From assembly GCA_903858655.1 (NCBI GenBank), contig CAIOJS010000489.1, positions 1-35,813 on the forward strand: 35,813 bases of DNA. The letters are read 5' to 3'. Both the position numbers and the translations under genes were made by a program. Each line of letters opens with the position of its first letter. The first letter of the stretch is position 1. Below the pieces are notes generated by a model, which was given only the letters and a program-made list of their open reading frames with translations, was not told where the DNA came from and did not search any database. The DNA comes from an uncultured bacterium. Its GTDB lineage: Bacteria; Bacteroidota; Bacteroidia; Bacteroidales; CAIWKO01. Positions 2,713 to 34,712 of this stretch are shown in pieces.

Positions 2713-5700
2713 ATGGAAAAGATTTTCGTCCGATTCAAAAGCCCTATTGCGGTCATACTCTTGTTAGTCATCATCGGCGGGGTGTTTTCCTATTCGTATA
2801 TGAAGACATCCTTATTCCCTGATGTAACATTTCCGAAGATAAAAATCATAGCTGAGAACGGCAGTCAGCCTGTGGATAAAATGATGGTGACAGTTACCAA
2901 GCCATTGGAAAATGCCATCAAGCAAGTGCCCGATTTGAAGATGATACGTAGCACTACCGCGATGGGAAGTTGCGAAATATCTGCCTATATCAAATGGGGT
3001 AGTGACATTGATATGGCAAAGCAACGCATGGAGGCGCTGATTGCTCAAATAAAAAACGATTTGCCTTCCGAAGTGCAAATAACGGTTGAGAAGATGAATC
3101 CGTCCATTTTGCCTGTGATGGGATTCTCCTTGCAATCTGAAAGCAAGACGCAAGTGGAGCTTAAAATGATTGCCGAATACACCGTGAAGCCTTTCCTTTC
3201 GAGCATAGATGGTGTGTCGCAAATCGCCGTGATAGGCGGAAGAGAAAAAGAGTATCGCATCGTTTTGAATCAGCAGAAAATGAATTTGCTAAAGATTAGC
3301 ACTCGTGATATAGCCAATGCAGTGGAACAAACGGGCTTTGTGGCTTCCAACGGATATACGATAGATTACAAACGTTTGTATCTAACCGTTACGGATGCCT
3401 CTCTCAAAGATAAAGACCAATTAGAGAATCTTGTGATTTTTAATGATACCAACCGACGTATCACCATGAGCGATGTGGCACATGTGGAGGTGGCTGCTCA
3501 AAACGAATATGTGAAAATCAAAGTGGATGGCAAAGACGTGCCTTTGGTGGCTGTGTTGAAACAACCTACAAGCAATTTGATTGATGTGGCTACGGATGTC
3601 AACAAACGGGTACAGGAATTGAACAAAATATTGCCAAAAGGTGTTACATTGAAACCCTATTACAATCAGGCGGAGTTCGTCAACGACAGTATCCGCAGCA
3701 TCATTGATGTGTTGTGGATAGGTTTGTTGTTAGCCATTGTCGTAGTAATTATTTTCTTGCGCTCTTTCAAGGCAAGCTCTGTGGTGCTTATTAGCATACC
3801 TGTTACCTTAGGCTTAACCTTTATTGTGTTGCGGGCGTTGGGTTTCGATTTCAACATAATGACCATCGGTGCCATTGCAGCATCCATCGGTTTGATTATA
3901 GATGATGCCATTATTGTGGTGGAGCAAATCCATCGAACGCACGAGGAATTCCCTGAGCGAAAACCAAAAGAACTTGTAGGCAAAGCCTTAAACTTTTTGT
4001 TTCCTGCCATGCTCAGTTCTTCTTTAAGCACCATCGTCATCTTCATTCCTTTTGTGCTGATGTCGGGAGTGGCAGGTGCTTATTTCAAAATATTGACCGA
4101 AACCATGATCATCACTTTGGTGTGCTCGTTTGTTGTTGTGTGGTTGGGCTTACCGGTGCTGTATTTATTGTTTTCAAGAGATAAAGCCTTTTCAAGCAGT
4201 ACTAAGATACAATTGGTGAAGCACCGGAATTGGATTGTATTTTTCTTGAAAAAGCCTTATATTGCATATTGTTTCGTGGTGGTTCTCATTGCTTCTGCTG
4301 TGTATATCGTTCCCAAGCTACAGAATGGATTTTTGCCCGAAATGGATGAGGGTTCCATCGTTTTGGATTACAACAGCCCCCCGGGGACTTCCCTTGAGGA
4401 AACAGACCGTATGCTTACTTCGGTGGATAAGATATTGGATAAGATTCCCGAAGTGGAAACCTATTCTCGACGCACGGGTTCGCAGATGGGCTTTTTCATC
4501 ACCGAACCAAACAGTGGTGATTATCTGATTCAACTTCACAAAAAACGTGACAAAACTACCGAAGATGTCTCCGACGATATACGGAAAAAGGTTGAAGCTG
4601 TCGTTCCTGCTTTGGTGATTGATTTCGGGCAGGTGATCACCGACATGTTGGGCGATTTGATGAGCAGTGTGCAGCCTGTGGAAGTCAAGATTTTCGGTAA
4701 CGACCACGAAAAGTTGAAAGACTTATCGAAACAAATAGCCGACAGTGTCGAAAGCGTTGCCGGCACCGCTGATGTGTTTGATGGCATCGTCATTGCAGGT
4801 CCCGTGGTTAAAGTGATTCCGAAGGAGGCTGACCTTCGGCAGTATGGTTTAAACGCCACAGACATTCAAACTCAGATACAAGCTAATTTGGGCGGCATCG
4901 TGGTGGGCAGCATCCCCGAAAAGGAGCAACTCACCAACATCCGCATGATTTACCCCATGAATAATCAAACTTCTATTGACCATCTGCTCCAAACCAAGAT
5001 ATTTTTGCCTTCCGGTGAGGTGGTTTCCTTATCCCATTTTGCTGACATTTCCATGCAAAACGGTGTAGCGGAAATCAAACGCGAAAATCTGCAGACCGTG
5101 GGAGTGGTTACCGCTCGATTGAACGAACGCGATTTGGGAAGCGTGATGAAAGATATACAGAAGAAGGTCGGCAAAATCAGCACTCCTCCGGGCTATCATG
5201 TCGAGTATGGCGGTTCATTTGCCGAGCAACAACAATCTTTCTTTGAGTTGCTTATGATTTTGATTTCGGGCGGCTTGTTGGTCTTTTTGGTTGTTTTGTT
5301 TATGTTTAAAGATTTAAAACTCTCTTTAATCATCATATTTATTAGCATATTGGGTATCACAGGAAGTTTGTTGGCGCTGTTTCTAACTAATACACCACTG
5401 AATGTGGGCAGCTACACCGGACTCATTATGATAATAGGCATCATTGGTGAGAACGCGATCTTCACCATACAACAGTTTTTGTCCGAACGACAACGTTCGG
5501 ATGTAAGGGAAGCTCTCAGCTACGCCATCTCGGCGCGTTTACGACCTAAATTGATGACAGCCATCGGCGCTATCGTAGCACTCTCGCCTTTAGCAGCGGG
5601 CATAGGCACAGGCGCGCAGATGCATCAACCCTTAGCCATTGCAGTTATTGGTGGTTTGATTATTGCCCTGCCTTTATTGCTGATAGTTTTACCTAGCTTT

Positions 5701-19046: not shown

Positions 19047-19604
19047 TTAAATTTTCCAGAGTGTTTCCGCGACGCCTAAATCTTTGGCAACATAACGAGC
19101 TAGCACAAAAAAATAATCCGAAAGACGGTTGATATATTTTAATACTAGTTTTTGTTTTTCGTTAAACAAATCAAGTTTCACCATGGCTCGTTCTGCCCTA
19201 CGACACACTGTGCGAGCAATATGGCAATAGGAAACCACAGGATGTCCGCCCGGCAAAATGAAATGTTTCAGTTCGGGCATGCGTTCGTTCATGCGGTCAA
19301 TTTCGGTCTCCAATAGTAGAATGTTTTCTTCGCTTAGCGATGGCAAATTGATGAGTGATTTTTCGGAATCGGCAGCCAGCAAAGATTCCGCGATAAAAAT
19401 ATGCGACTGAATGGCTAGCAAGGTGTGCTTTTGTTCCATCTCAATAGAGAAATCGCGGATAAGTCCGATAAAAGAATTTAATTCGTCGAGGGTGCCGTAG
19501 GCTTCGATACGCAAATCGGACTTTTCTACACGGCTTCCACCAATGAGGGAAGTGTTGCCGCTGTCTCCTTTTTTGGTATAGATTTTTTGATTATCGTAAT
19601 TCAT
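19047..19604 (-). CDS. PduO-type ATP:cob(I)alamin adenosyltransferase
   Basis: 185 aa. The N-terminal IYTKKGDSGNTSLIGGSRVEKSDLRIEAYGTLDELNSFIG is the hallmark of the PduO/MMAB family. Confidence 0.88.
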   Translation of the reverse strand: MNYDNQKIYTKKGDSGNTSLIGGSRVEKSDLRIEAYGTLDELNSFIGLIRDFSIEMEQKHTLLAIQSHIFIAESLLAADSEKSLINLPSLSEENILLLETEIDRMNERMPELKHFILPGGHPVVSYCHIARTVCRRAERAMVKLDLFNEKQKLVLKYINRLSDYFFVLARYVAKDLGVAETLWKI

Positions 19605-19608
19605 TTTT

Positions 19609-19692
19609 CAGTTAAATTAGTTCGGAGATCGGGGTTCAGAGTTTCTAGTTCAGGGTTCAGAGTTTCTAGTTTGGAGTTCAGAGTTCGGAGTT
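19609..19692. repeat. Array 2: about 3.5 copies of a 21-bp direct repeat (CAGGGTTCAGAGTTTCTAGTT) spanning the ABC ATPase stop codon and the intergenic gap
   Basis: Full units lie at 19630-19650, 19651-19671 and 19672-19692, with a half-matching unit at 19609-19629. Units 1 and 2 differ at one base. Confidence 0.8.
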
Positions 19693-20426
19693 TGGGATAC
19701 CAATTCTGCGTAAAATTTCATCTTGCGGATGTTTTCGTTTAGTTCGTCGGTGTCGACAACGCCATCTTTGAGGCGTATGATACGATGGGCGTGGCGTGCA
19801 ATGTCTTCTTCGTGAGTCACTAAGATAATAGTGTTACCTTGTTCGTGGATTTCTTCGAATAGCCCCATGATTTCGATGGATGTTTTCGAGTCGAGGTTAC
19901 CTGTGGGTTCATCTGCCAAAATAATAGAGGGTTTGTTGACCAAAGCTCGAGCAATAGCCACCCTTTGGCGTTGCCCACCCGAAAGTTCGTTCGGTTTGTG
20001 GGTGATACGGTCGCTGAGTTGCACCTGTTCCAATACTTCTTTGGCACGTAGGATGCGTTTGTTGTTGTTGAATCCTGCATAAATCAAGGGTAAGGCAACA
20101 TTGTCGAGCGCCGTGGAACGAGGTAGGAGATTGAAGGTTTGGAAAACAAAACCGATTTCTTTGTTGCGGATTTCGGCGAGTTGGTTGTCGTTGAGTTTGC
20201 TCACATCTTGCTGATTTAGGATGTAGGTGCCCGAGGTGGGCGTATCCAAACATCCAATAATATTCATCAAGGTGGATTTGCCCGAACCCGAAGGTCCCAT
20301 CAGGGCAACATACTCGTTCTTATATATCTTCAACGATATGCTTTGCAAAGCTTTGACAATATAAGTGCCCACTTTGTAATGCTTGGTAGTGTTGGTCAGA
20401 CTGATTATTTCGTTTTTCATGTTCAT
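19650..20426 (-). CDS. ABC transporter ATP-binding protein (MacB/LolD-like) with a repeat-derived C-terminal tail
   Basis: Walker [10 protein letters not shown], signature [15 protein letters not shown], Walker [12 protein letters not shown], and [20 protein letters not shown] typical of the MacB/LolD clade. The last ~14 codons ([13 protein letters not shown]) are encoded by the 21-bp repeats. Confidence 0.9.
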
Positions 20427-21192: not shown

Positions 21193-21327
21193 ATGATTAT
21201 TGCATTAGCTTCGACGGAATTTCGCAAAATGTTTTTTCTTTCTTCAGATAAGAAAAAATGATGTTGAAATATGTCAAAATGTCATGCGAAAATCAAGCCT
21301 TTTGCTTGCGACTGACAAAAGTGCTCC

Positions 21328-21537
21328 TTTTTTGTACCGCAACGACTCTTTTTTGTACCGCAACGATCCTTTTGACCGCCGCAACGATCCTTTTGACCAC
21401 CGCAACATTCCCTTCAACCACCGCATCATTCCTTTCGACCATCGCATCATTCCTTTTGAGTATCGCAATGTTCCTTTTGAGTACCGCAATGTTCCTTTTG
21501 AGTATCGCAACAACTCTTTCGACCACCGCAACGTTCC
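21328..21537. repeat. Array 3: 10 copies of a 21-bp direct repeat (consensus TTTTGACCACCGCAACGTTCC) in perfect register
   Basis: Units start at 21328, 21349, 21370, 21391, 21412, 21433, 21454, 21475, 21496 and 21517. CGCA (unit positions 11-14) and C-TTT (positions 21, 1-3) are invariant or nearly so. Variation clusters at positions 4-10 and 15-20. Confidence 0.9.
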
Positions 21538-21732
21538 TTTACGCTATATGGAGCATATTTGCAGTTTTCGCACTTACTTTTCGCTGCTGTTCCAAAATTC
21601 TTCTTCTTTCATCAAAAAGAAAACATAGAAATACATGATGATATATGCCTAATATTATTCAATTTACGTTACTGAAAACATCAGGAAAATATTTTTCTTA
21701 AAAAATTTGTGCATCACAATAAAAAAAATTTA

Positions 21733-27367: not shown

Positions 27368-27916
27368 ATGACATCAAATTCCAATGCAGCCATCACACTG
27401 CTCGACGTGGTAGAATCCATCCGCAACGTGCCCGATTTCCCCATCCCCGGCATACAGTTTAAAGACATCACCACCGCCATCAAACGTCCCGAGATTTTTC
27501 GCTATATGCTCGACCAAACCGCTGCCTATTACCAAAACATGGGCATCACCAAAGTGGTTGGCATCGAATCGCGCGGCTTCATCTTGGGCGGCGCTTTGGC
27601 AGCTCGCCTCAACGCAGGCTTCGTGCCCATTCGCAAACCCGGCAAACTGCCCGCGCCCACTTTTTCCAAATCCTATAGTTTGGAATATGGCGAAAACATC
27701 CTCCACATCCATCAAGACGCCTTAGAAACCAACGACGTGGTGTTGCTCCACGACGACTTGCTTGCCACAGGCGGCTCTGCCAAAGCAGCCATCGAACTCA
27801 TCCGCAACTTCGCCGTGAAATCCATCCACGTGAATTTCATCTGCGAACTCAGCTTCCTGAACGGCGCCGCGCAAATCGGTGAGGGGATAGAGGTGTTTTC
27901 GTTGGTGAAGTTCTAA
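27368..27916 (+). CDS. apt: Adenine phosphoribosyltransferase
   Basis: VPDFPIPGIQFKDIT, GIESRGFILGGALA, and the PRPP loop VLLHDDLLATGGSA. Confidence 0.93.
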   Translation: MTSNSNAAITLLDVVESIRNVPDFPIPGIQFKDITTAIKRPEIFRYMLDQTAAYYQNMGITKVVGIESRGFILGGALAARLNAGFVPIRKPGKLPAPTFSKSYSLEYGENILHIHQDALETNDVVLLHDDLLATGGSAKAAIELIRNFAVKSIHVNFICELSFLNGAAQIGEGIEVFSLVKF

Positions 27917-28300
27917 AGGTTCGCGCTTAAGAGGCAACTCAAAGAAATCCCAAAAATAAAATAATTTATCCGAATAAAAATATTTTTGAAAATACCCAGT
28001 GTTTTTTTGAAAAATTACGTTTATATGTTTAGCTGTCTCTTGATGGCATCACAATAGGCGATAAAAGGACTAAGGACCCTTTTACCAATTAGTATATTGA
28101 TGTTTCAAAATATTTATTATGAAGCATTTATTATTATTTGATGCAGCATTTCCCTGAATTAGATACTAAAATCAAATGTATGATGCAGATAAGATTAATA
28201 GTAATTTTGAAGCAATTGGAAAAAGTTCTTTGAATAACCTGTCTCCTTAACTATTGATATTACTGAATTATAAGAAATCATTGGGCTAAGTCGTCGTATT

Positions 28301-28308
28301 TAAATTTG
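28301..28308 (+). promoter_or_regulatory. -7 promoter box TAAATTTG immediately upstream of repeat array 4
   Basis: Perfect TAnnTTTG ending 12 nt before the first repeat unit (28321). I saw no clear -33 TTTG. Confidence 0.4.
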
Positions 28309-28320
28309 TCAATACATACT

Positions 28321-28580
28321 ATAATTTCGGATAATCAAGCAGGATTTCGGATAATCAAGCAGAATATCAGATATTCAAGCAGGATTTCGGAAATTCAAGC
28401 AGAATATCGGAAATTCAAGCTGAATATCGAAAATCCAAGCTGAATATCGGACAATTAAGCAGAATATCGGATAATCAAACAGAATATCGGACAATCAAGT
28501 AGAATATCGGAAATTCAAGCAGAATATCGGATAATCTAGCAGAATATCAGAAATCCAAGCAGAATGTCGGAAAACCAAGC
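28321..28580 (+). repeat. Array 4: 13 gap-free copies of a 20-bp direct repeat (consensus AGAATATCGGAWAWTCAAGC)
   Basis: Units tile 28321-28580 exactly every 20 nt. Positions 4, 5, 7, 8, 11, 13 and 18 are invariant, and most variation is at positions 6, 12, 14 and 15. No ORF of 60 aa or more crosses it in any frame. Confidence 0.95.
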
Positions 28581-28707
28581 AGAGCTTAGCAACTTTAACT
28601 AAATGATGATCCAATGGAGTTACGGATTACACAAAGAATTCAAATGAAATGCATAATAACACTTTAGTTAAAAATAAATATTAATTTAATCTTAAAAACT
28701 TAAAAAT

Positions 28708-29382
28708 ATGTTTTATTCTGTTGCATTACTTGATTTTGTTAAATTATCAATCGTACTATTAATTGAAAGAGGCTATTTTGTAGCTTCATGTTTAACATCT
28801 AACCCAACGTTTCCTGCGCCTTTTGTGTTGGCAGCGCAAATAACCACCTTGACGGATACTTTGAAAACCGCTTGGCTGGCTTATGAAGCGAATCCAGGAA
28901 CTGACGAAAAAGAAGCTCTTGATTTAGCCCATGACGCTCTGATAGAGGCTTTGCTATCCAATGCCGGTTACGTGACAGGCAAATCGGCTGGAGACCCTAT
29001 TAAAATAAAATCAGGTGGCTACACTCCTTCAAAGGAAAGACACATGAATGAGAAACCCCCTTACGACGCCAAACCTGGTTCAAACCCGGGACGCGTCAAA
29101 CTATATTATCAAAAAGGTGAGCAGGATGTGACCGTTATTTGGTTAGAATTTCATGGAGCCGAAGCCCCCGCAAGTATTTCGGATTATGCTCCAAGCGCAG
29201 GCACGACTTACGATAGTATCGAATTAACGGGATATACTTCTGGTGAATGGATTAATTTTGTTGTTCGCCCATCGCAGTCAAAGGCGATGGCAAATTCCAT
29301 TGGACTCCACCCTTGCTTGTGTTGGTACCATAAGCTTAGGGCATTGAAAGCAAAAAGGACAAGCTTGGACAAGCGGGAATGA
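28708..29382 (+). CDS. Hypothetical protein with an N-terminal helical region and a C-terminal Fn3/Ig-like beta-sandwich (uncharacterised Bacteroidota family, by eye)
   Basis: 224 aa. LTSNPTFPAPFVLAAQITTLTDTLKTAW and ...AGYVTGKSAGDPIKIKSGGYTPSK resemble a recurrent uncharacterised family. The C-terminal GRVKLYYQKGEQDVTVIWLEF...YTSGEWINFVVRP looks Fn3-like. Confidence 0.55.
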   Translation: MFYSVALLDFVKLSIVLLIERGYFVASCLTSNPTFPAPFVLAAQITTLTDTLKTAWLAYEANPGTDEKEALDLAHDALIEALLSNAGYVTGKSAGDPIKIKSGGYTPSKERHMNEKPPYDAKPGSNPGRVKLYYQKGEQDVTVIWLEFHGAEAPASISDYAPSAGTTYDSIELTGYTSGEWINFVVRPSQSKAMANSIGLHPCLCWYHKLRALKAKRTSLDKRE

Positions 29383-29403
29383 TGATTAAATCTATGATAA
29401 TGC

Positions 29404-30027
29404 ATGAATAAAAATAGGGATTATAATTGGCAAGAAATCTTTAAAGAAAAGTCTAATAAGGAGCTCTATGATATATATTGCGGAAATTCCTTTCTGCCTA
29501 TCTCTGTTCTTGAATTTGCAAAAAACGAGTTGGAGAATCGGAATTTTGATTTTAAGGGTATAAAAAACATGATTATTGATCTAAAAGTTGAAGCCTTAGC
29601 AGAAGAAGCTTCACGAATTAATTTATTCTTTCAGAAAAGACCGCACGTTTCATTAAAATCAGGACTTATCACCATGTTGATTTTACTATTCCTATTTATT
29701 CTTTTTTCCCAATATTATGATATCCCAATAATCTTTCCAATCCTGATTTCAGGATTTGCGTCATTAGGTTTTCTTATTGATTCGCTGATAACAAACTATA
29801 TCCGAAAGAAAAAATTCATCCGACTTGAAAAAATTGAAAAAGAGATACGGTCTCTGATAAGCCAACAAAATCAAAATAACAATAAAGAAGATACACTTTC
29901 AATTTTTGATTTCGATAAAATTGTGCAAACAAAAGTTCTTTCTGATTTAAAACAAGATCGTAATCTAGCGATTGTAGTGGTTTTAATATTAATCACTATT
30001 TTGCTCATTAAATTTATTATTTCATGA
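29404..30027 (+). CDS. Hypothetical membrane protein with a soluble N-terminal ~80 aa and three predicted TM helices
   Basis: 207 aa. Hydrophobic stretches are LITMLILLFLFILF, IPIIFPILISGFASLGFLIDSLI and the C-terminal LAIVVVLILITILLIKFII. Start is 21 nt after the preceding stop. Confidence 0.55.
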   Translation: MNKNRDYNWQEIFKEKSNKELYDIYCGNSFLPISVLEFAKNELENRNFDFKGIKNMIIDLKVEALAEEASRINLFFQKRPHVSLKSGLITMLILLFLFILFSQYYDIPIIFPILISGFASLGFLIDSLITNYIRKKKFIRLEKIEKEIRSLISQQNQNNNKEDTLSIFDFDKIVQTKVLSDLKQDRNLAIVVVLILITILLIKFIIS

Positions 30028-30130
30028 GTCCCTATTAGGCGGAGGTTCTACCTCCGTCTTGTCTATCCTTTTAGGCTTCTGCCTAATACCTTTTATCTAC
30101 AAAAGCACTAAGCAAAACTTTATTACTTTA
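30028..30130 (+). repeat. Direct repeat copy A (~103 nt), starting immediately after the stop of gene 29404-30027
   Basis: Aligns without gaps to 30938-31040. Both begin GTCCCT, both contain a GC hairpin (here CGGAGGT-TCT-ACCTCCG at 30040-30056), and the 3' ~55 nt (AGGCTTYTGCCTAATACCTYTTATCTACAAAAGCAYTAA..AAAACTTTATTACTTTA) are ~90% identical. Confidence 0.8.
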
Positions 30131-30201
30131 GTAACAAAACAAAATCCGATGTTATTTTTTGTCAAATGATAGTTTTTTTTATTTAGTATTATTAAAAAGC
30201 A

Positions 30202-30241
30202 TAAATTTGCAGTATGATAATTTTCTTGATTATTAAATTTG
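30202..30241 (+). promoter_or_regulatory. Two perfect -7 boxes (TAAATTTG at 30202-30209 and at 30234-30241) upstream of the HEPN gene
   Basis: Both match TAnnTTTG. The proximal one ends 12 nt before ATG 30254. Confidence 0.45.
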
Positions 30242-30253
30242 AGATTTTAAATA

Positions 30254-30652
30254 ATGACAAACGAACAACATATACAATTTTTAATCAGGCAGGCAGATGA
30301 AGATTTTGGGGCTACAGAGGCTTTGTATCAGAGTGGTTTTTTTGGACAATCTTTATTTTGGGCACATTTGACTTTGGAAAAGTTATGTAAAGCACTGTGG
30401 ATATTTAAAAATGAAAATGAGAAATATCCTTATGTTCACAATTTACTTCGACTTTTAAAAGAATGTAATATTGTATTGTCTGAGGATCAGATACTTTTTT
30501 ATGCAGAAATGAATCAGTTTCAAGCAGCAGGCAGATATGGAGATTATTTAAAAAAACTTGAAGAAAGTATCACTTCAGATGTTTGCATAAATTTATTGAT
30601 AGAAGTTAAAAAACAGATGTTATGGATAAAACAGCAGATGCAAAACAAATAG
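30254..30652 (+). CDS. HEPN-domain protein (PF05168-like)
   Basis: 132 aa, all-helical. WAHLTLEKLCKALW, YVHNLLRLLKE and AAGRYGDY fit the HEPN pattern (A.EKalKa...H.L..L...RYp). Overlaps the following nucleotidyltransferase gene by 31 nt. Confidence 0.7.
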   Translation: MTNEQHIQFLIRQADEDFGATEALYQSGFFGQSLFWAHLTLEKLCKALWIFKNENEKYPYVHNLLRLLKECNIVLSEDQILFYAEMNQFQAAGRYGDYLKKLEESITSDVCINLLIEVKKQMLWIKQQMQNK

Positions 30653-30933
30653 CAATCAACTTTGTGAAGACGTGTGTTAACTATGGGATACCTTTGTCGG
30701 AAGCCTATCTGTTTGGTTCGTGGGCAAAAGGAACCGCCACTGCTAATTCCGACATCGATCTTGCTATAGTTGCTTCTTCTTTTGGAAGAAATATCATCGA
30801 AAACTCTAGGCAAACCGCATTAATTAACTATGAATTTTCTGATGTTGAAGTGCATCATTTTAGTCCAAATGATTTTAATTCTGACGATCCTTTTATCAAC
30901 GAAATTAAACGAACAGGATTGAAAATACTATAA
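30622..30933 (+). CDS. Minimal nucleotidyltransferase (MNT, Pol-beta superfamily), partner of the HEPN protein
   Basis: 103 aa with LFGSWAKGTATANSDIDLAIV, which is the GS-x(9-11)-DxD active-site signature of MNT/NTP_transf_2 proteins. Confidence 0.8.
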   Translation: MDKTADAKQIAINFVKTCVNYGIPLSEAYLFGSWAKGTATANSDIDLAIVASSFGRNIIENSRQTALINYEFSDVEVHHFSPNDFNSDDPFINEIKRTGLKIL

Positions 30934-30937
30934 ACAA

Positions 30938-31040
30938 GTCCCTTTCAGAGGCAACCTCTGCCTCCGGAAGCAATATCTTTACAGGCTTTTGCCTAATACC
31001 TCTTATCTACAAAAGCATTAAAAAAACTTTATTACTTTAT
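30938..31040 (+). repeat. Direct repeat copy B (~103 nt), starting 4 nt after the MNT stop
   Basis: Gap-free alignment to 30028-30130 (see copy A). Its hairpin CAGAGG-CAA-CCTCTG lies at 30946-30960. Confidence 0.8.
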
Positions 31041-31205
31041 GCAACAGCAACAAACTAATAAAGTAAAAGATGCGGTGAGTAACCCCTGTTACTAAACTAA
31101 TAAAGTTTGAAACCGCTTGTCTGAAGTTTGCAACTCTGTTGGGCGGTCTCTAGCACTTTAAATACTTGAAGTACTTTAGGCACTTTAAGTACTTCTCCCC
31201 CTCTT

Positions 31206-33503: not shown

Positions 33504-34712
33504 TTATAAAAATTTTCTGATAATCAATTCTTCCAACTTATTCAGTGCATCCGGTTTTTCGTTCCAATTGTGTTTTTCTTTTAAATCTTCGAAAAAGATG
33601 TTGGCTTCTTCAATCCCCACAAAACTGTTGAGCATATCAATGGTTTTATTATATTCCTGAAGATCTCCTTTAAAAAGTTCGTTGATAAATAAAAACTTAT
33701 CGTTGATACCTATTGCGTTTTTTAGGTTGGTAATAGTTGCTTTCCCCGCTTTGCTCGCCAAAGTGTTATCAGGTTTGTCATGCACCATTTTTTCGTGCAT
33801 CAACTTAGGGGCTTCTTTAAACTTATCTGCCACAATTTCTTTTTCAGTTAGTGAAAACAAATCAATCGCTTGTTGTTTTCCAGTTTTCACAGGAGTAGGA
33901 ACTTCCTTGGGTATCTCATTCACGACTTTCTGTTCAGGAACATCTACTTTTGTAATGATAAGTTCATTCACAGGAGTATCCACTTTTGTAATAATTGTGT
34001 CTAAAGGAAATTTCGGTTCTTCAACCACGACAGGAGGTTTTGTTTCCTCCTTAATTGGCTCCTCTGTTTCTTCTAAAAGTTCACTCACAGGAGTATCAAC
34101 TTTGGTAATAATAGTTTCTACTGGCAGTTTTGGCTCTTCAACAATTATAGGAGGTAGAGTTTCTTCCACAATGAGGTTCACGGTTTCTTCAATAAGTTCG
34201 CTTAAAGGAGCATCAACTTTGGTAATAAAGGTTTCTATCGGCAGTTTTGGTTCTTCAACAATCATGGGAGGAAAAGTTTCCTCAACAACAGGCTCCAAAG
34301 TTTCTTCTATAGGTAAAAAACTATCAACGGAAGTATCCGGCACTTCTTGTACCTCCAAAACAACATCGTCAGCTATTATTTCTGAAATTTTTTCTATTGG
34401 CTCTAAATCTATGGAAATAACAGTATTATCAGGATTTTCAATCCTAATTTCATCCTTGTTTTCTTGTGGTATTGAAAAATCTTGTTTCTCAATTTCAAAA
34501 TTTACTGCTATATTTGCATCAATACTATTTTTATGATAGCTGTTTAATTTGTTTAACTCATAAAAGAGTTCGTAAAAGTGTCGGATATTTGCCATAACGA
34601 TATCCAATTCAATTTGAGGAATTCTTTTTTCGTGTTCATCAATGATAGCAAACTGTTCATTTAGAACCTCTAAAATATTTTTTATTTCTTCTTTGATATT
34701 TTTTGTTTCCAT
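33504..34712 (-). CDS. Conserved Bacteroidota protein of unknown function with acidic Pro-rich tandem repeats
   Basis: 402 aa. Three ~39-aa repeats (EETxPPxxVEEPKLPxETxITKVDxPxSELxEE) are flanked by a helical N-terminus and a C-terminal GINDKFLFINELFKGDLQEYNKTI domain that I recall from uncharacterised Bacteroidota proteins. Stop lies 1 nt from the M28 start. Confidence 0.6.
   Translation of the reverse strand: METKNIKEEIKNILEVLNEQFAIIDEHEKRIPQIELDIVMANIRHFYELFYELNKLNSYHKNSIDANIAVNFEIEKQDFSIPQENKDEIRIENPDNTVISIDLEPIEKISEIIADDVVLEVQEVPDTSVDSFLPIEETLEPVVEETFPPMIVEEPKLPIETFITKVDAPLSELIEETVNLIVEETLPPIIVEEPKLPVETIITKVDTPVSELLEETEEPIKEETKPPVVVEEPKFPLDTIITKVDTPVNELIITKVDVPEQKVVNEIPKEVPTPVKTGKQQAIDLFSLTEKEIVADKFKEAPKLMHEKMVHDKPDNTLASKAGKATITNLKNAIGINDKFLFINELFKGDLQEYNKTIDMLNSFVGIEEANIFFEDLKEKHNWNEKPDALNKLEELIIRKFL
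33969..34320 (-). repeat. Three tandem 117-bp coding repeats inside gene 33504-34712
   Basis: CACAGGAGTATC at 33969, CACAGGAGTATC at 34086 and TAAAGGAGCATC at 34203 are each 117 nt apart. A partial extra ITKVD-coding copy lies near 33937. Confidence 0.8.

What the first reader, a model, noticed from the sequence alone, without database searches (positions are those of the whole stretch)
28301..28590. Thirteen gap-free 20-bp direct repeats behind a perfect -7 promoter box, 128 nt upstream of an unknown gene
28321-28580 is 13 head-to-tail copies of AGAATATCGGAWAWTCAAGC, with no indel in 260 bp. Every unit starts exactly 20 nt after the previous one. Substitutions are patterned. Unit positions 4, 5, 7, 8, 11, 13 and 18 are invariant and most others nearly so, while positions 12, 14, 15 and 6 carry most of the variation. 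A 20-nt period cannot encode a repeating peptide, and no frame is open across it, so it is non-coding. TAAATTTG, a perfect match to the Bacteroidota TAnnTTTG -7 box, lies at 28301-28308, 12 nt before unit 1. The array may therefore be transcribed, either as a ~390-nt leader of gene 28708 or as a stand-alone repeat RNA. It sits in a 790-bp AT-rich gap right after apt. It is not CRISPR, since there are no spacers. The architecture resembles iterons, partition centromeres or transcription-factor landing pads. However, no Rep-, ParR- or regulator-like gene is adjacent.
Basis: partly seen in the sequence, partly recalled or inferred. Interest (0 to 1): 0.72.

Follow-up and report, generated by a model that had tools for sequence, protein, structure and literature searches.

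The report
Gene-linked 20-bp tandem repeat array
The thirteen 20-bp repeats are real and non-coding, and similar arrays accompany one unannotated gene family in uncultured, probably freshwater Bacteroidota, so this is most likely a copy-number-variable control element and not a plasmid-type iteron or centromere.

Summary
Window 28321-28580 holds 13 gap-free 20-bp units. All six frames are closed, and there is no Rfam hit.

The array is not an orphan. The gene behind it (28708) belongs to a family of 208-aa proteins with no annotation, built of a helical bundle plus an Fn3 domain. Eight distinct loci of that family show a 20-bp array at the same place. It starts about 12 nt after a TAnnTTTG-type box and ends 90-139 nt before the ATG in a conserved degenerate unit. 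A 266-nt block upstream of the array is as conserved as the coding sequence. Unit sequences differ strongly between loci but are homogenised within each locus, which indicates concerted evolution. Complete arrays hold 8-14 units.

More distant family members carry 21- or 41/42-bp arrays, upstream or downstream of the gene. A dyad-symmetric core sits at one fixed register position in seven arrays.

My best reading, at confidence 0.35, is a phased multi-site landing pad on the DNA for a host factor. It would gate transcription from the conserved promoter, and its strength would depend on unit number.

The rivals are:
- a transcribed 5'-UTR rheostat;
- a neutral minisatellite like BrickBuilt;
- a stand-alone repeat RNA;
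- an iteron or centromere, which is not supported.

The parts
27368..27916 (+). apt (adenine phosphoribosyltransferase), the conserved left flank of a strain-variable islet
   Evidence: It matches Pfam Pribosyltran. Contigs with a 100% identical Apt carry three different cassettes directly after its stop codon.
28035..28300 (+). Conserved non-coding block upstream of the array ('leader' block)
   Evidence: It is 79-82% identical between the window, L013 and L014. The CDS is 73-81% identical, third codon positions 58-70%, and unrelated flanks 55-68%. All frames carry stops in all three loci. There is no Rfam hit and no convincing covariation with only 3 sequences.
28202..28209 (+). TAATTTTG, the first candidate -7 promoter box, inside the block
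   Evidence: It is a perfect TAnnTTTG in the window and at the aligned position in L013. L014 has GTAAATTTTG there.
28301..28308 (+). TAAATTTG, the second candidate -7 promoter box, 12 nt before unit 1
   Evidence: It is perfect in the window and in L013 (TAATTTTG). L016 has CTTATTTG and L014 has TCATTTTG at the same aligned place. Whether it functions as a promoter is inferred, not shown.
28321..28580 (+). Array of 13 head-to-tail 20-bp units with consensus AGAATATCGGAAAATCAAGC, in the register GAATATCGGAAAATCAAGCA from 28322. Each unit has a dyad core TATC-G-GAWA followed by an A-tract.
   Evidence: Homologous arrays stand at the same place in seven other loci.
28582..28601 (+). Terminal degenerate unit GAGCTTAGCAACTTTAACTA, of the TTG-N-CAA type
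   Evidence: It is in register with the array and more conserved between loci than the internal units: GCTTGGCAAC in L013, ACTTGGCAAT in L012, GCTTGACAAT in L016 and ACCTGACAAC in L017.
28581..28707 (+). 'Tail' or leader between the array and the ATG. It is A-rich and includes the conserved motif GGAGTTACGGATTACACAAAGA at 28616-28637.
   Evidence: The motif matches exactly in 8 fetched loci, representing five distinct family loci, and is unique in the window. An nhmmer profile of the tail hits every close-family locus whose upstream DNA is held except L018. RNAalifold predicts 0 conserved pairs over 8 loci.
28708..29382 (+). Family gene, encoding a helical bundle plus Fn3 domain. The normal length is 208 aa. 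The window copy is frameshifted by a 1-nt deletion near 29265, and the intact frame would stop at 29330-29332.
   Evidence: There are 12 close homologues, all 208 aa. The frameshift is seen at the DNA level. A profile search finds 220 clusters, nearly all 200-228 aa. Fn3 is detected in the C-terminal half. The AlphaFold2 model has pLDDT 96.
29404..30027 (+). 207-aa membrane protein gene, the conserved right flank of the variable cassette
   Evidence: It is 97% identical to L001:11085-11696, although the cassette to its left is different.

Best explanation
The array is the central part of a three-part non-coding control region: a conserved 266-nt block, then the tandem array, then a conserved tail. 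This region travels with one gene as a cassette. The gene encodes an acidic protein of about 208 aa built of a helical bundle and an Fn3 domain.

I propose that the array acts on the DNA as a phased row of weak dyad-symmetric sites. There is one site every 20 bp, about two helical turns, and each is followed by an A/T tract. The row would be nucleated from the better-conserved terminal TTG-N-CAA unit next to the gene. A dimeric host DNA-binding or nucleoid-associated protein would occupy it cooperatively.

The row lies between the conserved TAnnTTTG box and the gene. The filament would therefore gate transcription into the gene, as a roadblock or silencer. Gain and loss of units by slippage or unequal recombination would change how strong that gate is.

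What is shown:
- the array and its linkage to the gene family;
- its fixed position and period;
- concerted evolution of the units;
- the dyad core at a fixed register;
- the conservation of the flanks.

What is inferred:
- transcription from the box;
- protein binding;
- any effect on expression.
For: (1) Linkage to the gene family. A 20-bp array is seen in 8 distinct loci of the close family: the window, L012/L007/L008, L013/L015, L014, L016, L020, L017 and L019. L011 shows the last unit at its contig start. Only L018 lacks the array.

(2) Fixed boundaries. The array starts about 12-13 nt after the aligned box. It ends in a conserved terminal unit 90-139 nt before the ATG.

(3) Purifying selection on the flanks. 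The block is 79-82% identical between loci, against 58-70% at third codon positions.

(4) A dyad core at one register position. Centre 8 gives 21 of 28 Watson-Crick pairs over seven arrays. The other 39 centres give 7.4 +/- 3.1, with a maximum of 15. The substitutions are symmetric: C.G to G.C in the inner pair, and T.A, G.C and A.T in the outer pairs.

(5) The periods are 20, 21 or 41/42 bp in all subfamilies, which is about 2 or 4 helical turns.

(6) Arrays lie upstream of the gene in types A and D. In types B and C they lie downstream, and in type B they follow a terminator hairpin. That fits a DNA element better than a 5'-leader RNA.

(7) There is no conserved RNA structure. The tail has 0 predicted pairs. 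The sense strand of the L014 array is unstructured, with z = +0.6.

(8) No resolved array has fewer than 8 units, which suggests selection for the multi-copy state.
Against: No DNA-binding gene travels with the type A cassette. The cassette's own protein is acidic, with pI 4.6-5.6 and an N-domain pI of 4.4-5.2, so it is an unlikely binder.

Unit sequences differ greatly between loci. A single host factor would have to read a degenerate T-S-N-S-A core or DNA shape.

Single consensus units are no more palindromic than shuffled units (combined P = 0.81).

The seven arrays share ancestry, so the register signal does not come from seven independent observations.

The period could simply be inherited rather than selected.

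There are no expression or binding data at all.
Confidence: 0.35

Rival explanations
1. The array is a transcribed 5'-UTR rheostat. Transcription starts just after the TAAATTTG box, so the array forms most of a roughly 400-nt A-rich leader. Unit number, changed by slippage, sets mRNA stability, processing or translation. This is what the 7-bp repeats do in the hmw1A 5'-UTR of Haemophilus influenzae.
For: A conserved box stands 12-13 nt before the first unit, and no other TAnnTTTG lies between the array and the ATG. Other first genes in the window have the box 11-41 nt from the ATG, so this gene would otherwise lack a promoter.

Contigs encoding the identical protein P0002 differ in the order and number of units (L012, L008, L007).

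Distant family genes carry simple repeats, (AG)16 and poly-C13, in their upstream regions. These are hallmarks of contingency loci.

The sense strand of the array is 43% A.

The precedent is PMC12721329.
Against: There is no conserved RNA structure in the tail. Self-structure of the sense strand is not universal (L014). No G-rich or complementary right arm like the one in hmw exists.

In the 205-aa subfamily the array lies downstream of the gene, after a terminator. In the 226-aa subfamily it also lies downstream. A 5'-UTR role therefore cannot be general.

The differences between strains could be artefacts of short-read assembly.
Confidence: 0.2
2. The array is a neutral, self-perpetuating minisatellite. 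It would be the internal repeat of a leader-array-tail element like the BrickBuilt MITE of Porphyromonas gingivalis, and it hitch-hikes with the gene. Slippage keeps it homogenised and multi-copy, and it has no function of its own.
For: The architecture is the same as BrickBuilt: a leader of up to 285 nt, 23-nt repeats without spacers, and a tail.

The pattern of evolution is that of concerted evolution. Internal units are homogenised differently in each locus, while edge units keep an ancestral-like sequence.

The same window holds other arrays with periods of about 21 bp, at 21336-21545 and 19619-19696. This lineage may simply be prone to repeats.

The window's array is the most degenerate of all (83% matches), and it sits in front of a frameshifted gene copy.
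Against: The array persists at the same position across proteins only 62-75% identical. Analogous arrays occur with relatives only about 25% identical.

No resolved array has fewer than 8 units, whereas BrickBuilt ranges from 1 to 22.8.

The flanking block and tail are under purifying selection.

No IS5-type terminal inverted repeats or other terminal repeats were found. No second copy of the block or tail occurs away from a family gene in about 124 kb of held sequence, counting redundant loci.
Confidence: 0.2
3. The array is a stand-alone repeat RNA. It would be transcribed on its own and act as a decoy or scaffold presenting 13 copies of a short motif to an RNA-binding protein, like CsrB or RsmZ.
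For: A promoter-like box stands directly upstream. A GGA-containing core (TCGGA) is repeated in four of the seven arrays. In type B loci the array stands alone after a terminator.
Against: No terminator is predicted between the array and the gene. GGA is absent from the units of L014, L017 and L019. There is no Rfam match. No hairpins present the motif. From general knowledge, not tested here, CsrA is not expected in Bacteroidota.
Confidence: 0.07
4. The array consists of iterons of a replication origin, or is a partition centromere of an integrated plasmid or other mobile element.
For: The format fits. Units of 20 bp repeated head to tail about 13 times, each with a dyad core, recall plasmid iterons, the 20-bp parC repeats of pSK41 and the 12 sopC repeats of F. 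This comparison rests on established knowledge and was not tested here.
Against: There is no rep, parA/parB or parM/parR gene in the cassette or next to it. Neither the DNA nor the protein matches any of 72,556 plasmid or 50,697 phage records. The cassette is 1.3 kb with one acidic Fn3 protein. It sits in ordinary chromosomal contexts, and the same metagenome sample yields two cassette types on separate contigs (L001 and L007).
Confidence: 0.03

Closest known systems
BrickBuilt minisatellite MITE of Porphyromonas gingivalis (Klein et al. 2015, PMC4596501)
   Same: Both occur in the phylum Bacteroidota. Both have a three-part architecture: a non-repetitive leader (up to 285 nt in BrickBuilt, 266 nt here), tandem repeats of about 20 nt without spacers, and a non-repetitive tail. 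Both are intergenic and lie within 49-591 nt of coding sequences. In both, some unit positions are conserved and others variable. BrickBuilt flanks show promoter activity, and here there are promoter-like boxes.
   Different: The BrickBuilt unit is 23 nt; here it is 20 nt. BrickBuilt has 19 dispersed copies next to unrelated genes, IS5-like terminal inverted repeats (GAGACC...) and 1-22.8 repeats. Here the element is always next to one gene family, no terminal repeats were found, no dispersed copies were seen, and there are 8-14 units. Sequence similarity could not be tested because the BrickBuilt sequences were not at hand.
Repeat tracts in 5'-UTRs or promoters of contingency loci, such as the (ATCTTTC)n tract upstream of hmw1A/hmw2A in Haemophilus influenzae (PMC12721329, PMC8262952)
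   Same: In both, a tandem repeat tract lies between the promoter and the start codon of an accessory gene. The number of units differs between strains, which would give a graded effect on expression rather than an on/off switch.
   Different: The unit here is 20 bp, not 7 bp. No long hairpin with a complementary right arm exists. The unit sequence itself turns over between loci. Related subfamilies have the array downstream of the gene.
Plasmid iterons and partition centromere arrays (sopC of F, parC of R1 and pSK41). These are cited from established knowledge; no paper was read here.
   Same: All are head-to-tail units of about 20 bp in roughly 4-13 copies, with a period close to two helical turns. 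In sopC each unit has a dyad-symmetric core. All are thought to be coated cooperatively by a dimeric protein.
   Different: No Rep or Par partner gene is present, the array is not on a replicon, and nothing resembles known plasmids. This is a resemblance in how the array might work, not membership.
CRISPR arrays
   Same: Both are regularly spaced direct repeats behind an AT-rich conserved leader.
   Different: There are no spacers at all, because the units abut. The unit is 20 bp. No cas gene is adjacent.

Membership tests
Plasmid iteron origin | Tandem direct repeats of 17-22 bp | tested here: met
   There are 13 units of 20 bp with no indel.
Plasmid iteron origin | A cognate rep gene adjacent to the repeats | tested here: not met
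   The neighbours are apt, an acidic helical+Fn3 protein, a membrane protein and a HEPN/MNT pair. No Rep domain is present.
Plasmid iteron origin | Located on a plasmid or other replicon | tested here: not met
   Neither the DNA nor the protein matches PLSDB or phage records. The flanks are housekeeping genes.
Partition centromere (parC/sopC type) | An adjacent parA/parB or parM/parR operon whose adaptor protein binds the repeats | tested here: not met
   No such gene occurs in the window's cassette or in the related loci.
Partition centromere (parC/sopC type) | Repeats carry a dyad-symmetric binding core | tested here: inconclusive
   The fixed-register dyad signal is 21/28 against 7.4 +/- 3.1. 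Single units are not more palindromic than shuffles.
CRISPR | Repeats separated by unique spacers of similar length | tested here: not met
   Start-to-start spacing equals unit length, 20 bp, so there are no spacers.
CRISPR | Associated cas genes | tested here: not met
   Pfam scans of the ten ORFs between 25256 and 34712 show no Cas domain.
BrickBuilt-type minisatellite MITE | A non-repetitive leader, then tandem repeats of about 23 nt without spacers, then a non-repetitive tail | tested here: met
   The window has the block 28035-28300, the array 28321-28580 and the tail 28581-28707, all conserved in relatives. The unit is 20 nt rather than 23.
BrickBuilt-type minisatellite MITE | Short terminal inverted repeats of IS5 type at the outer ends | tested here: not met
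   No inverted or direct terminal repeats were found at the cassette edges in the window, L013 or L014. The block starts TGTCTC, not GAGACC.
BrickBuilt-type minisatellite MITE | Many dispersed copies per genome next to unrelated genes | tested here: inconclusive
   No second copy of the block or tail occurs in the 35.8-kb window or in any other held locus away from a family gene. No whole genome could be scanned.
Contingency-locus repeat tract in a 5'-UTR (hmw1A type) | The tract lies between the promoter and the start codon and is transcribed | not testable with these tools
   The position relative to a conserved TAnnTTTG box fits. No transcript data are available.
Contingency-locus repeat tract in a 5'-UTR (hmw1A type) | Unit number differs between closely related strains | tested here: inconclusive
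   L012, L008 and L007 encode the identical protein but differ in unit order and number. All are short-read assemblies and two of the contigs start inside the array. L013 and L015, which are independent assemblies, agree exactly.
Contingency-locus repeat tract in a 5'-UTR (hmw1A type) | The repeat RNA pairs with a complementary arm to form a long hairpin | tested here: not met
   RNAalifold finds 0 conserved pairs in the tail. The sense strand of the L014 array is unstructured.
CsrB/RsmZ-type decoy RNA | Many GGA motifs presented in hairpin loops, with the RNA ended by its own terminator | tested here: not met
   GGA is absent from the L014, L017 and L019 units. No terminator is predicted after the array. 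There is no Rfam hit.
Any Rfam RNA family | A match at the gathering score | tested here: not met
   There are 0 matches in the window and in nine related loci. Below threshold only chance miRNA hits appear.

The most novel reading that the evidence does not exclude
The block, array and tail would form a previously undescribed class of gene-coupled repeat element in Bacteroidota. A whole superfamily of roughly 205-aa helical+Fn3 proteins (about 220 clusters at 50% identity) would keep a roughly 150-280-bp tandem array of phased dyad sites, with a period of 20, 21 or 42 bp, within about 230 bp of the gene. The array would be assembled into a nucleoprotein filament or an equivalent RNA-protein assembly, and would act as a heritable, copy-number-tunable switch for a hypervariable accessory gene that occupies strain-specific islets.
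Probability: 0.3. Interest if true: 0.72.

Novelty: new variant of a known kind. Interest (0 to 1): 0.58.

Why it matters
Tandem arrays in bacterial intergenic regions are usually written off as VNTR noise. Alternatively, they are filed under CRISPR, iterons or centromeres.

Here an array keeps its place, period and multi-copy state next to one gene family. This holds across proteins 62-75% identical, and analogous arrays accompany relatives only about 25% identical, while the unit sequence is completely rewritten.

That pattern points to a function that depends on repetition and phasing rather than on a fixed sequence. Bacterial gene regulation offers few examples of this, and none, to my knowledge, in environmental Bacteroidota.

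The finding also gives a first handle on an unannotated protein superfamily that sits in strain-variable islets next to defence-type genes (HEPN/MNT, GmrSD).

There is a practical consequence too. Short-read assemblies break at these arrays in at least seven of the fetched contigs, so this gene family and its neighbourhood are systematically fragmented in MAGs.

Tried and rejected
Coding array. All six frames are closed in the window. Units in L012, L013 and L014 contain TAA.

Small ORF in the upstream block. No frame is open in all three loci.

Known RNA family. No match reaches the gathering score in the window or in 9 related loci; below it only chance miRNA hits appear.

Conserved RNA structure. 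The tail has 0 pairs. The block has only 2-3 compensatory pairs with 3 sequences on either strand. Array self-folding is strong in most loci but absent on the sense strand of L014.

The cassette's own protein as the binder. It is acidic, with pI 4.6-5.6. Foldseek recognises only the Fn3 half. There is no PHROG, NCBIfam or PADLOC hit.

A regulator gene travelling with the cassette. None is found for type A. A weak Xre-type 91-aa HTH gene is divergent from the type B gene in L025 and L026 only. No remnant of it occurs in type A upstream regions or anywhere in the window.

Plasmid or phage origin. There are no matches.

Viral-contig scans. The protein profile, the block motif, a single unit and a two-unit pattern found nothing. 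The tail motif gave one chance hit inside a phage coding region (L027), which I rejected.

Transposon-like ends. No terminal repeats were found.

Palindromic units. My first impression that every unit is a palindrome did not survive a shuffle test on single units (P = 0.81). Only the fixed-register signal holds.

First AlphaFold run. With 12 close homologues the model was unusable (pLDDT 42). It worked only with 49 diverse sequences.

Unit count of 12-14. I considered this a sign of stabilising selection and set the idea aside. L014 has 8 units, and short-read assembly may impose a ceiling.
Full report
OBSERVATION

The array is real. Tandem Repeats Finder gives 28323-28583 with period 20, 13.1 copies and score 310. 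Cutting from 28321 yields 13 units with 16-19 of 20 matches to AGAATATCGGAAAATCAAGC, at exactly 20-nt spacing.

The consensus with up to 3 mismatches matches 12 times, all in the array, against 0.01 expected. Every one of the six frames has 2-5 stops. No Rfam family matches at the gathering score, and below it there are only chance miRNA hits.

TAAATTTG is at 28301-28308. That motif occurs 57 times in the window against 45 expected, so on its own it is weak evidence.

SURROUNDINGS

Upstream lie ada, rlmN and apt, with apt at 27368-27916. G+C then drops from 0.48 to about 0.33.

The low-G+C stretch holds, in order:
- the 791-nt gap with the array;
- a 224-aa ORF at 28708-29382;
- a 207-aa membrane protein;
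- a HEPN/MNT pair.

A universal stress protein gene and an M28 peptidase gene follow on the minus strand.

Contigs whose Apt protein is 100% identical carry three different cassettes between apt and the 207-aa gene:
- The window type has the array followed by the gene on the plus strand.
- L001 has a different array, 21 bp x 12 with unit GATGTCGATATAATCTTAAAA, and a 205-aa gene on the minus strand.
- L002 has a 226-aa gene with 41/42-bp arrays 160 nt downstream of it.

All three proteins belong to one superfamily (E = 5e-4, E = 4e-11). The gap after apt is therefore a strain-variable islet, and each alternative cassette brings a family gene plus a tandem array.

THE GENE FAMILY

The 224-aa ORF has 12 close homologues, all 208 aa, with no Pfam domain and no name. 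The window copy lost one base near 29265, which changes its last roughly 22 residues.

A profile search of 1.84 billion representatives finds 220 clusters, nearly all 200-228 aa. The C-terminal half is an Fn3 domain. AlphaFold2 with 49 diverse sequences gives pLDDT 96, showing an N-terminal bundle of long helices plus Fn3. Foldseek recognises only the Fn3 part. There is no hit in PHROGs, NCBIfam or PADLOC. The proteins are acidic, with pI 4.6-5.6.

THE ARRAY IS A CONSERVED COMPANION OF THE GENE

I fetched every relative whose upstream DNA could be obtained.

A 20-bp array with 0% indels stands in front of the gene in eight distinct loci:

| Locus | Consensus unit (registered) | Units seen |
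|---|---|---|
| window | GAATATCGGAAAATCAAGCA | 13 |
| L012/L007/L008 | TAATATCGGAAGATAAAAAA | at least 13 |
| L013/L015 | TAACTTCGGAAGAAATAACA | 12 plus a partial unit |
| L016 | TATGGTCGGACGAAAAAATT | 14 |
| L020 | same type as L016 | at least 7 |
| L014 | ACAACTTGTCAAATTATATT | 8 |
| L017 | GAACCTGACAAGTTTTAGCA | at least 5 |
| L019 | CATGACGTCATCAAATAGTT | at least 5 |

The remaining loci are as follows. L011 starts with the last unit. L009 and L010 start 28 nt after the array. Only L018 lacks the array; there the gene follows an ArsR-like ORF directly. At least seven contigs begin inside or just after the array, which is what short-read assemblers do at such repeats.

Relatives only about 25% identical (L021, L022) have 21-bp arrays with a 42-bp super-period, 85-226 nt before the ATG. 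They also carry an (AG)16 or a poly-C13 tract further upstream.

In the 205-aa subfamily, L001 and L026 are 71% identical. Both show the order gene, conserved terminator hairpin, then a 21-bp x 12-12.8 array about 140-155 nt after the stop codon, again with unrelated unit sequences.

Across about 124 kb of held sequence (redundant loci included), the only strong arrays not next to a family gene are three. One is a 21-bp array at window 21336-21545. One is an 8-bp array in L013. The third is a coding 117-bp repeat.

ANATOMY OF THE CONTROL REGION

Upstream of the array, a 266-nt block (28035-28300) is 79-82% identical among the window, L013 and L014. The CDS is 73-81% identical, third codon positions 58-70%, and unrelated flanks 55-68%. 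The block has no ORF, no Rfam match and no convincing covariation.

The block contains one conserved TAnnTTTG at 28202. A second, at 28301, follows directly after its end. No such box lies between the array and the ATG in any locus. In this window, seven other first genes have a box 11-41 nt before their ATG, against 399 nt here.

The array ends in a degenerate unit that is more conserved between loci than the internal units: GCTTGRCAAYTTCAGAT, with the core TTG-N-CAA.

The tail carries GGAGYTWCRGATWMMMCAAAGA. This motif is exact in 8 fetched loci (five distinct family loci) and unique in the window. The tail has no predicted RNA structure.

Homology to relatives ends just after the intact stop codon at 29330-29332. 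The cassette is therefore about 1.3 kb. No terminal repeats flank it.

HOW THE ARRAY EVOLVES

Internal units are homogenised to a different sequence in each locus. Edge units keep older forms. The first unit of L016 resembles the first unit of L013, and its second unit resembles the L012 type. The last unit is conserved everywhere. This is the signature of concerted evolution by slippage or unequal exchange.

Contigs encoding the identical protein P0002 differ in the order and number of the promoter-proximal units (L012, L008, L007). Two independent assemblies of another locus, L013 and L015, agree exactly. Short-read assembly limits how far these counts can be trusted. It may also explain why complete arrays cluster at 12-14 units.

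TESTS BEARING ON MECHANISM

(a) A dyad core sits at a fixed register. With units registered by the conserved terminal unit, centre position 8 gives 21 of 28 Watson-Crick pairs over seven arrays. The other 39 centres give 7.4 +/- 3.1, with a maximum of 15. The changes are symmetric: C.G to G.C in the inner pair, and T.A, G.C and A.T further out. Single units are no more palindromic than shuffles. The arrays also share ancestry, so this is suggestive and not proof.

(b) Each unit has an A/T tract just 3' of the core (read directly from the sequences).

(c) The periods are 20, 21 or 41/42 bp, close to two or four helical turns.

(d) Arrays occur on either side of family genes.

(e) No conserved sense-RNA structure exists.

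(f) The cassette's own protein is acidic, and no regulator travels with the type A cassette.

(g) Nothing matches plasmids, phages or viral contigs.

EXPLANATIONS

I commit, at 0.35, to a DNA-level reading. The array would be a phased row of weak dyad sites. It would be nucleated at the conserved terminal unit and occupied cooperatively by a dimeric host protein. That filament would gate transcription from the conserved box into the gene, and unit gain or loss would tune the gate. Points (a)-(e) and the absence of short arrays favour this reading. The missing binder and the divergence of unit sequences count against it.

The rivals, with my confidence in each:
- A transcribed 5'-UTR rheostat of the hmw1A kind (0.2). 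The promoter geometry, the strain differences and the simple repeats in relatives support it. The downstream arrays in types B and C and the lack of RNA structure weaken it.
- A neutral minisatellite like BrickBuilt (0.2). The architecture and the concerted evolution fit. Its persistence, the minimum of 8 units, the selected flanks, the absence of terminal repeats and the absence of dispersed copies argue against it.
- A stand-alone decoy RNA (0.07).
- An iteron or centromere (0.03).

COMPARISON WITH WHAT IS KNOWN

The closest published thing is BrickBuilt of Porphyromonas gingivalis. It has a leader of up to 285 nt, 23-nt spacer-less repeats in 1-22.8 copies, a tail, IS5-like ends and 19 dispersed copies, and its flanks show promoter activity (PMC4596501).

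The present element shares the architecture and the phylum. It does not share the terminal repeats, the dispersal or the unit length. Unlike BrickBuilt, it is bound to one gene family.

Functionally the nearest precedent is the (ATCTTTC)n tract in the hmw1A 5'-UTR (PMC12721329). Iterons and the sopC and parC centromeres resemble the array in format only.

VERDICT

It is the variable core of a conserved control region that belongs to a mobile or paralogous gene cassette in uncultured, probably freshwater Bacteroidota. Its mechanism is not established. I rate it a new variant of a known kind (a gene-linked regulatory minisatellite) with interest 0.58.

Noticed in passing
window 29260-29382: The family gene in the window has a 1-nt deletion (GTTGT-TCGCC against GTTGCATCGCC in L009). 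This replaces the conserved C-terminus ...SPIAVKGDGKFHWTPPLLVLIP with an unrelated 38-aa tail. The intact frame would stop at 29330-29332. The cause is either a pseudogene or an assembly error.
   Followed up: yes
window 21336-21545 (also L001:2740-2932): A second tandem array of 21 bp x ~10 (ACCGCAACGTTCCTTTTGACC) lies 166 nt upstream of a Trypsin_2/TPR gene. It is open in two plus-strand frames, one of them (ORF 21284-21628) giving heptads like PFDHRNx, and it is called as a 115-aa gene in related contigs. It has no Pfam hit. Unit number and sequence differ between the window and L001.
   Followed up: partly
window 27917-31205; L001:9309-12400; L002:2782-4487: The gap between apt and the stress-protein gene is a strain-variable islet. 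Behind a 100% identical Apt there are three alternative cassettes. Each carries one member of the same helical+Fn3 superfamily and its own tandem array (20 bp upstream, 21 bp downstream, 41/42 bp downstream).
   Followed up: yes
L001:9741-9992 and L026:1561-1829: In the 205-aa subfamily the array (21 bp x 12-12.8) follows the gene after a conserved terminator hairpin (AAAAACGATAGTCGCAAGCTATCGTTTTT). ATG-started ORFs run through both arrays on the gene strand, giving K/S/T-rich heptads. These ORFs are probably fortuitous, but this was not tested.
   Followed up: partly
L021:3625-3656 and L022:~3462-3474: Simple sequence repeats, (AG)16 and poly-C13, lie upstream of the arrays of distant family members. 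Such tracts are typical of phase-variable contingency loci.
   Followed up: no
window 30254-30933: A HEPN (132 aa) and MNT nucleotidyltransferase (103 aa) pair overlaps by 31 nt. It is probably a toxin-antitoxin or defence module (MNT hits PADLOC PDC-S09). L001 has two unrelated small ORFs (76 and 113 aa, no Pfam) at the same place.
   Followed up: partly
window 33960-34307: A 117-bp x 3 repeat (39-aa units) lies inside ORF 33504-34712 (402 aa, minus strand, no Pfam). The orthologue in a related contig is 379 aa.
   Followed up: no
window 19619-19696: A short repeat with a 7/21-bp period (AGTTCAG; GGGTTCAGAGTTTCTAGTTCA) lies at the junction of two minus-strand ORFs (19047-19604 and 19650-20426), overlapping the 3' end of the second. 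A similar AGTTCAGAGTTCCA repeat is at L001:1066-1105.
   Followed up: no
L025:3580-3855 and L026:364-639: A 91-aa gene with a weak Xre-type HTH match (below Pfam cut-offs) is transcribed divergently from the 205-aa family gene. L026 also has a GmrSD type IV restriction gene downstream. Neither gene is present in the window.
   Followed up: partly
L013:337-549: A long 8-bp tandem array (AATGATAC x 26.6) lies about 1 kb upstream of the family gene.
   Followed up: no
L001:9400-9560: A G+C-rich element that looks structured (GGGCGTGCCCCCGACAGAAAATGTCGGGGTCGGGC...) follows apt in the L001, L004 and L006 strain type. It has no Rfam match.
   Followed up: partly
L007, L008, L009, L010, L011, L012, L017, L019, L020 (contig starts): Short-read contigs carrying family genes begin inside or just after the array. 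These arrays therefore fragment metagenome assemblies systematically, and the unit counts given here are lower bounds.
   Followed up: yes
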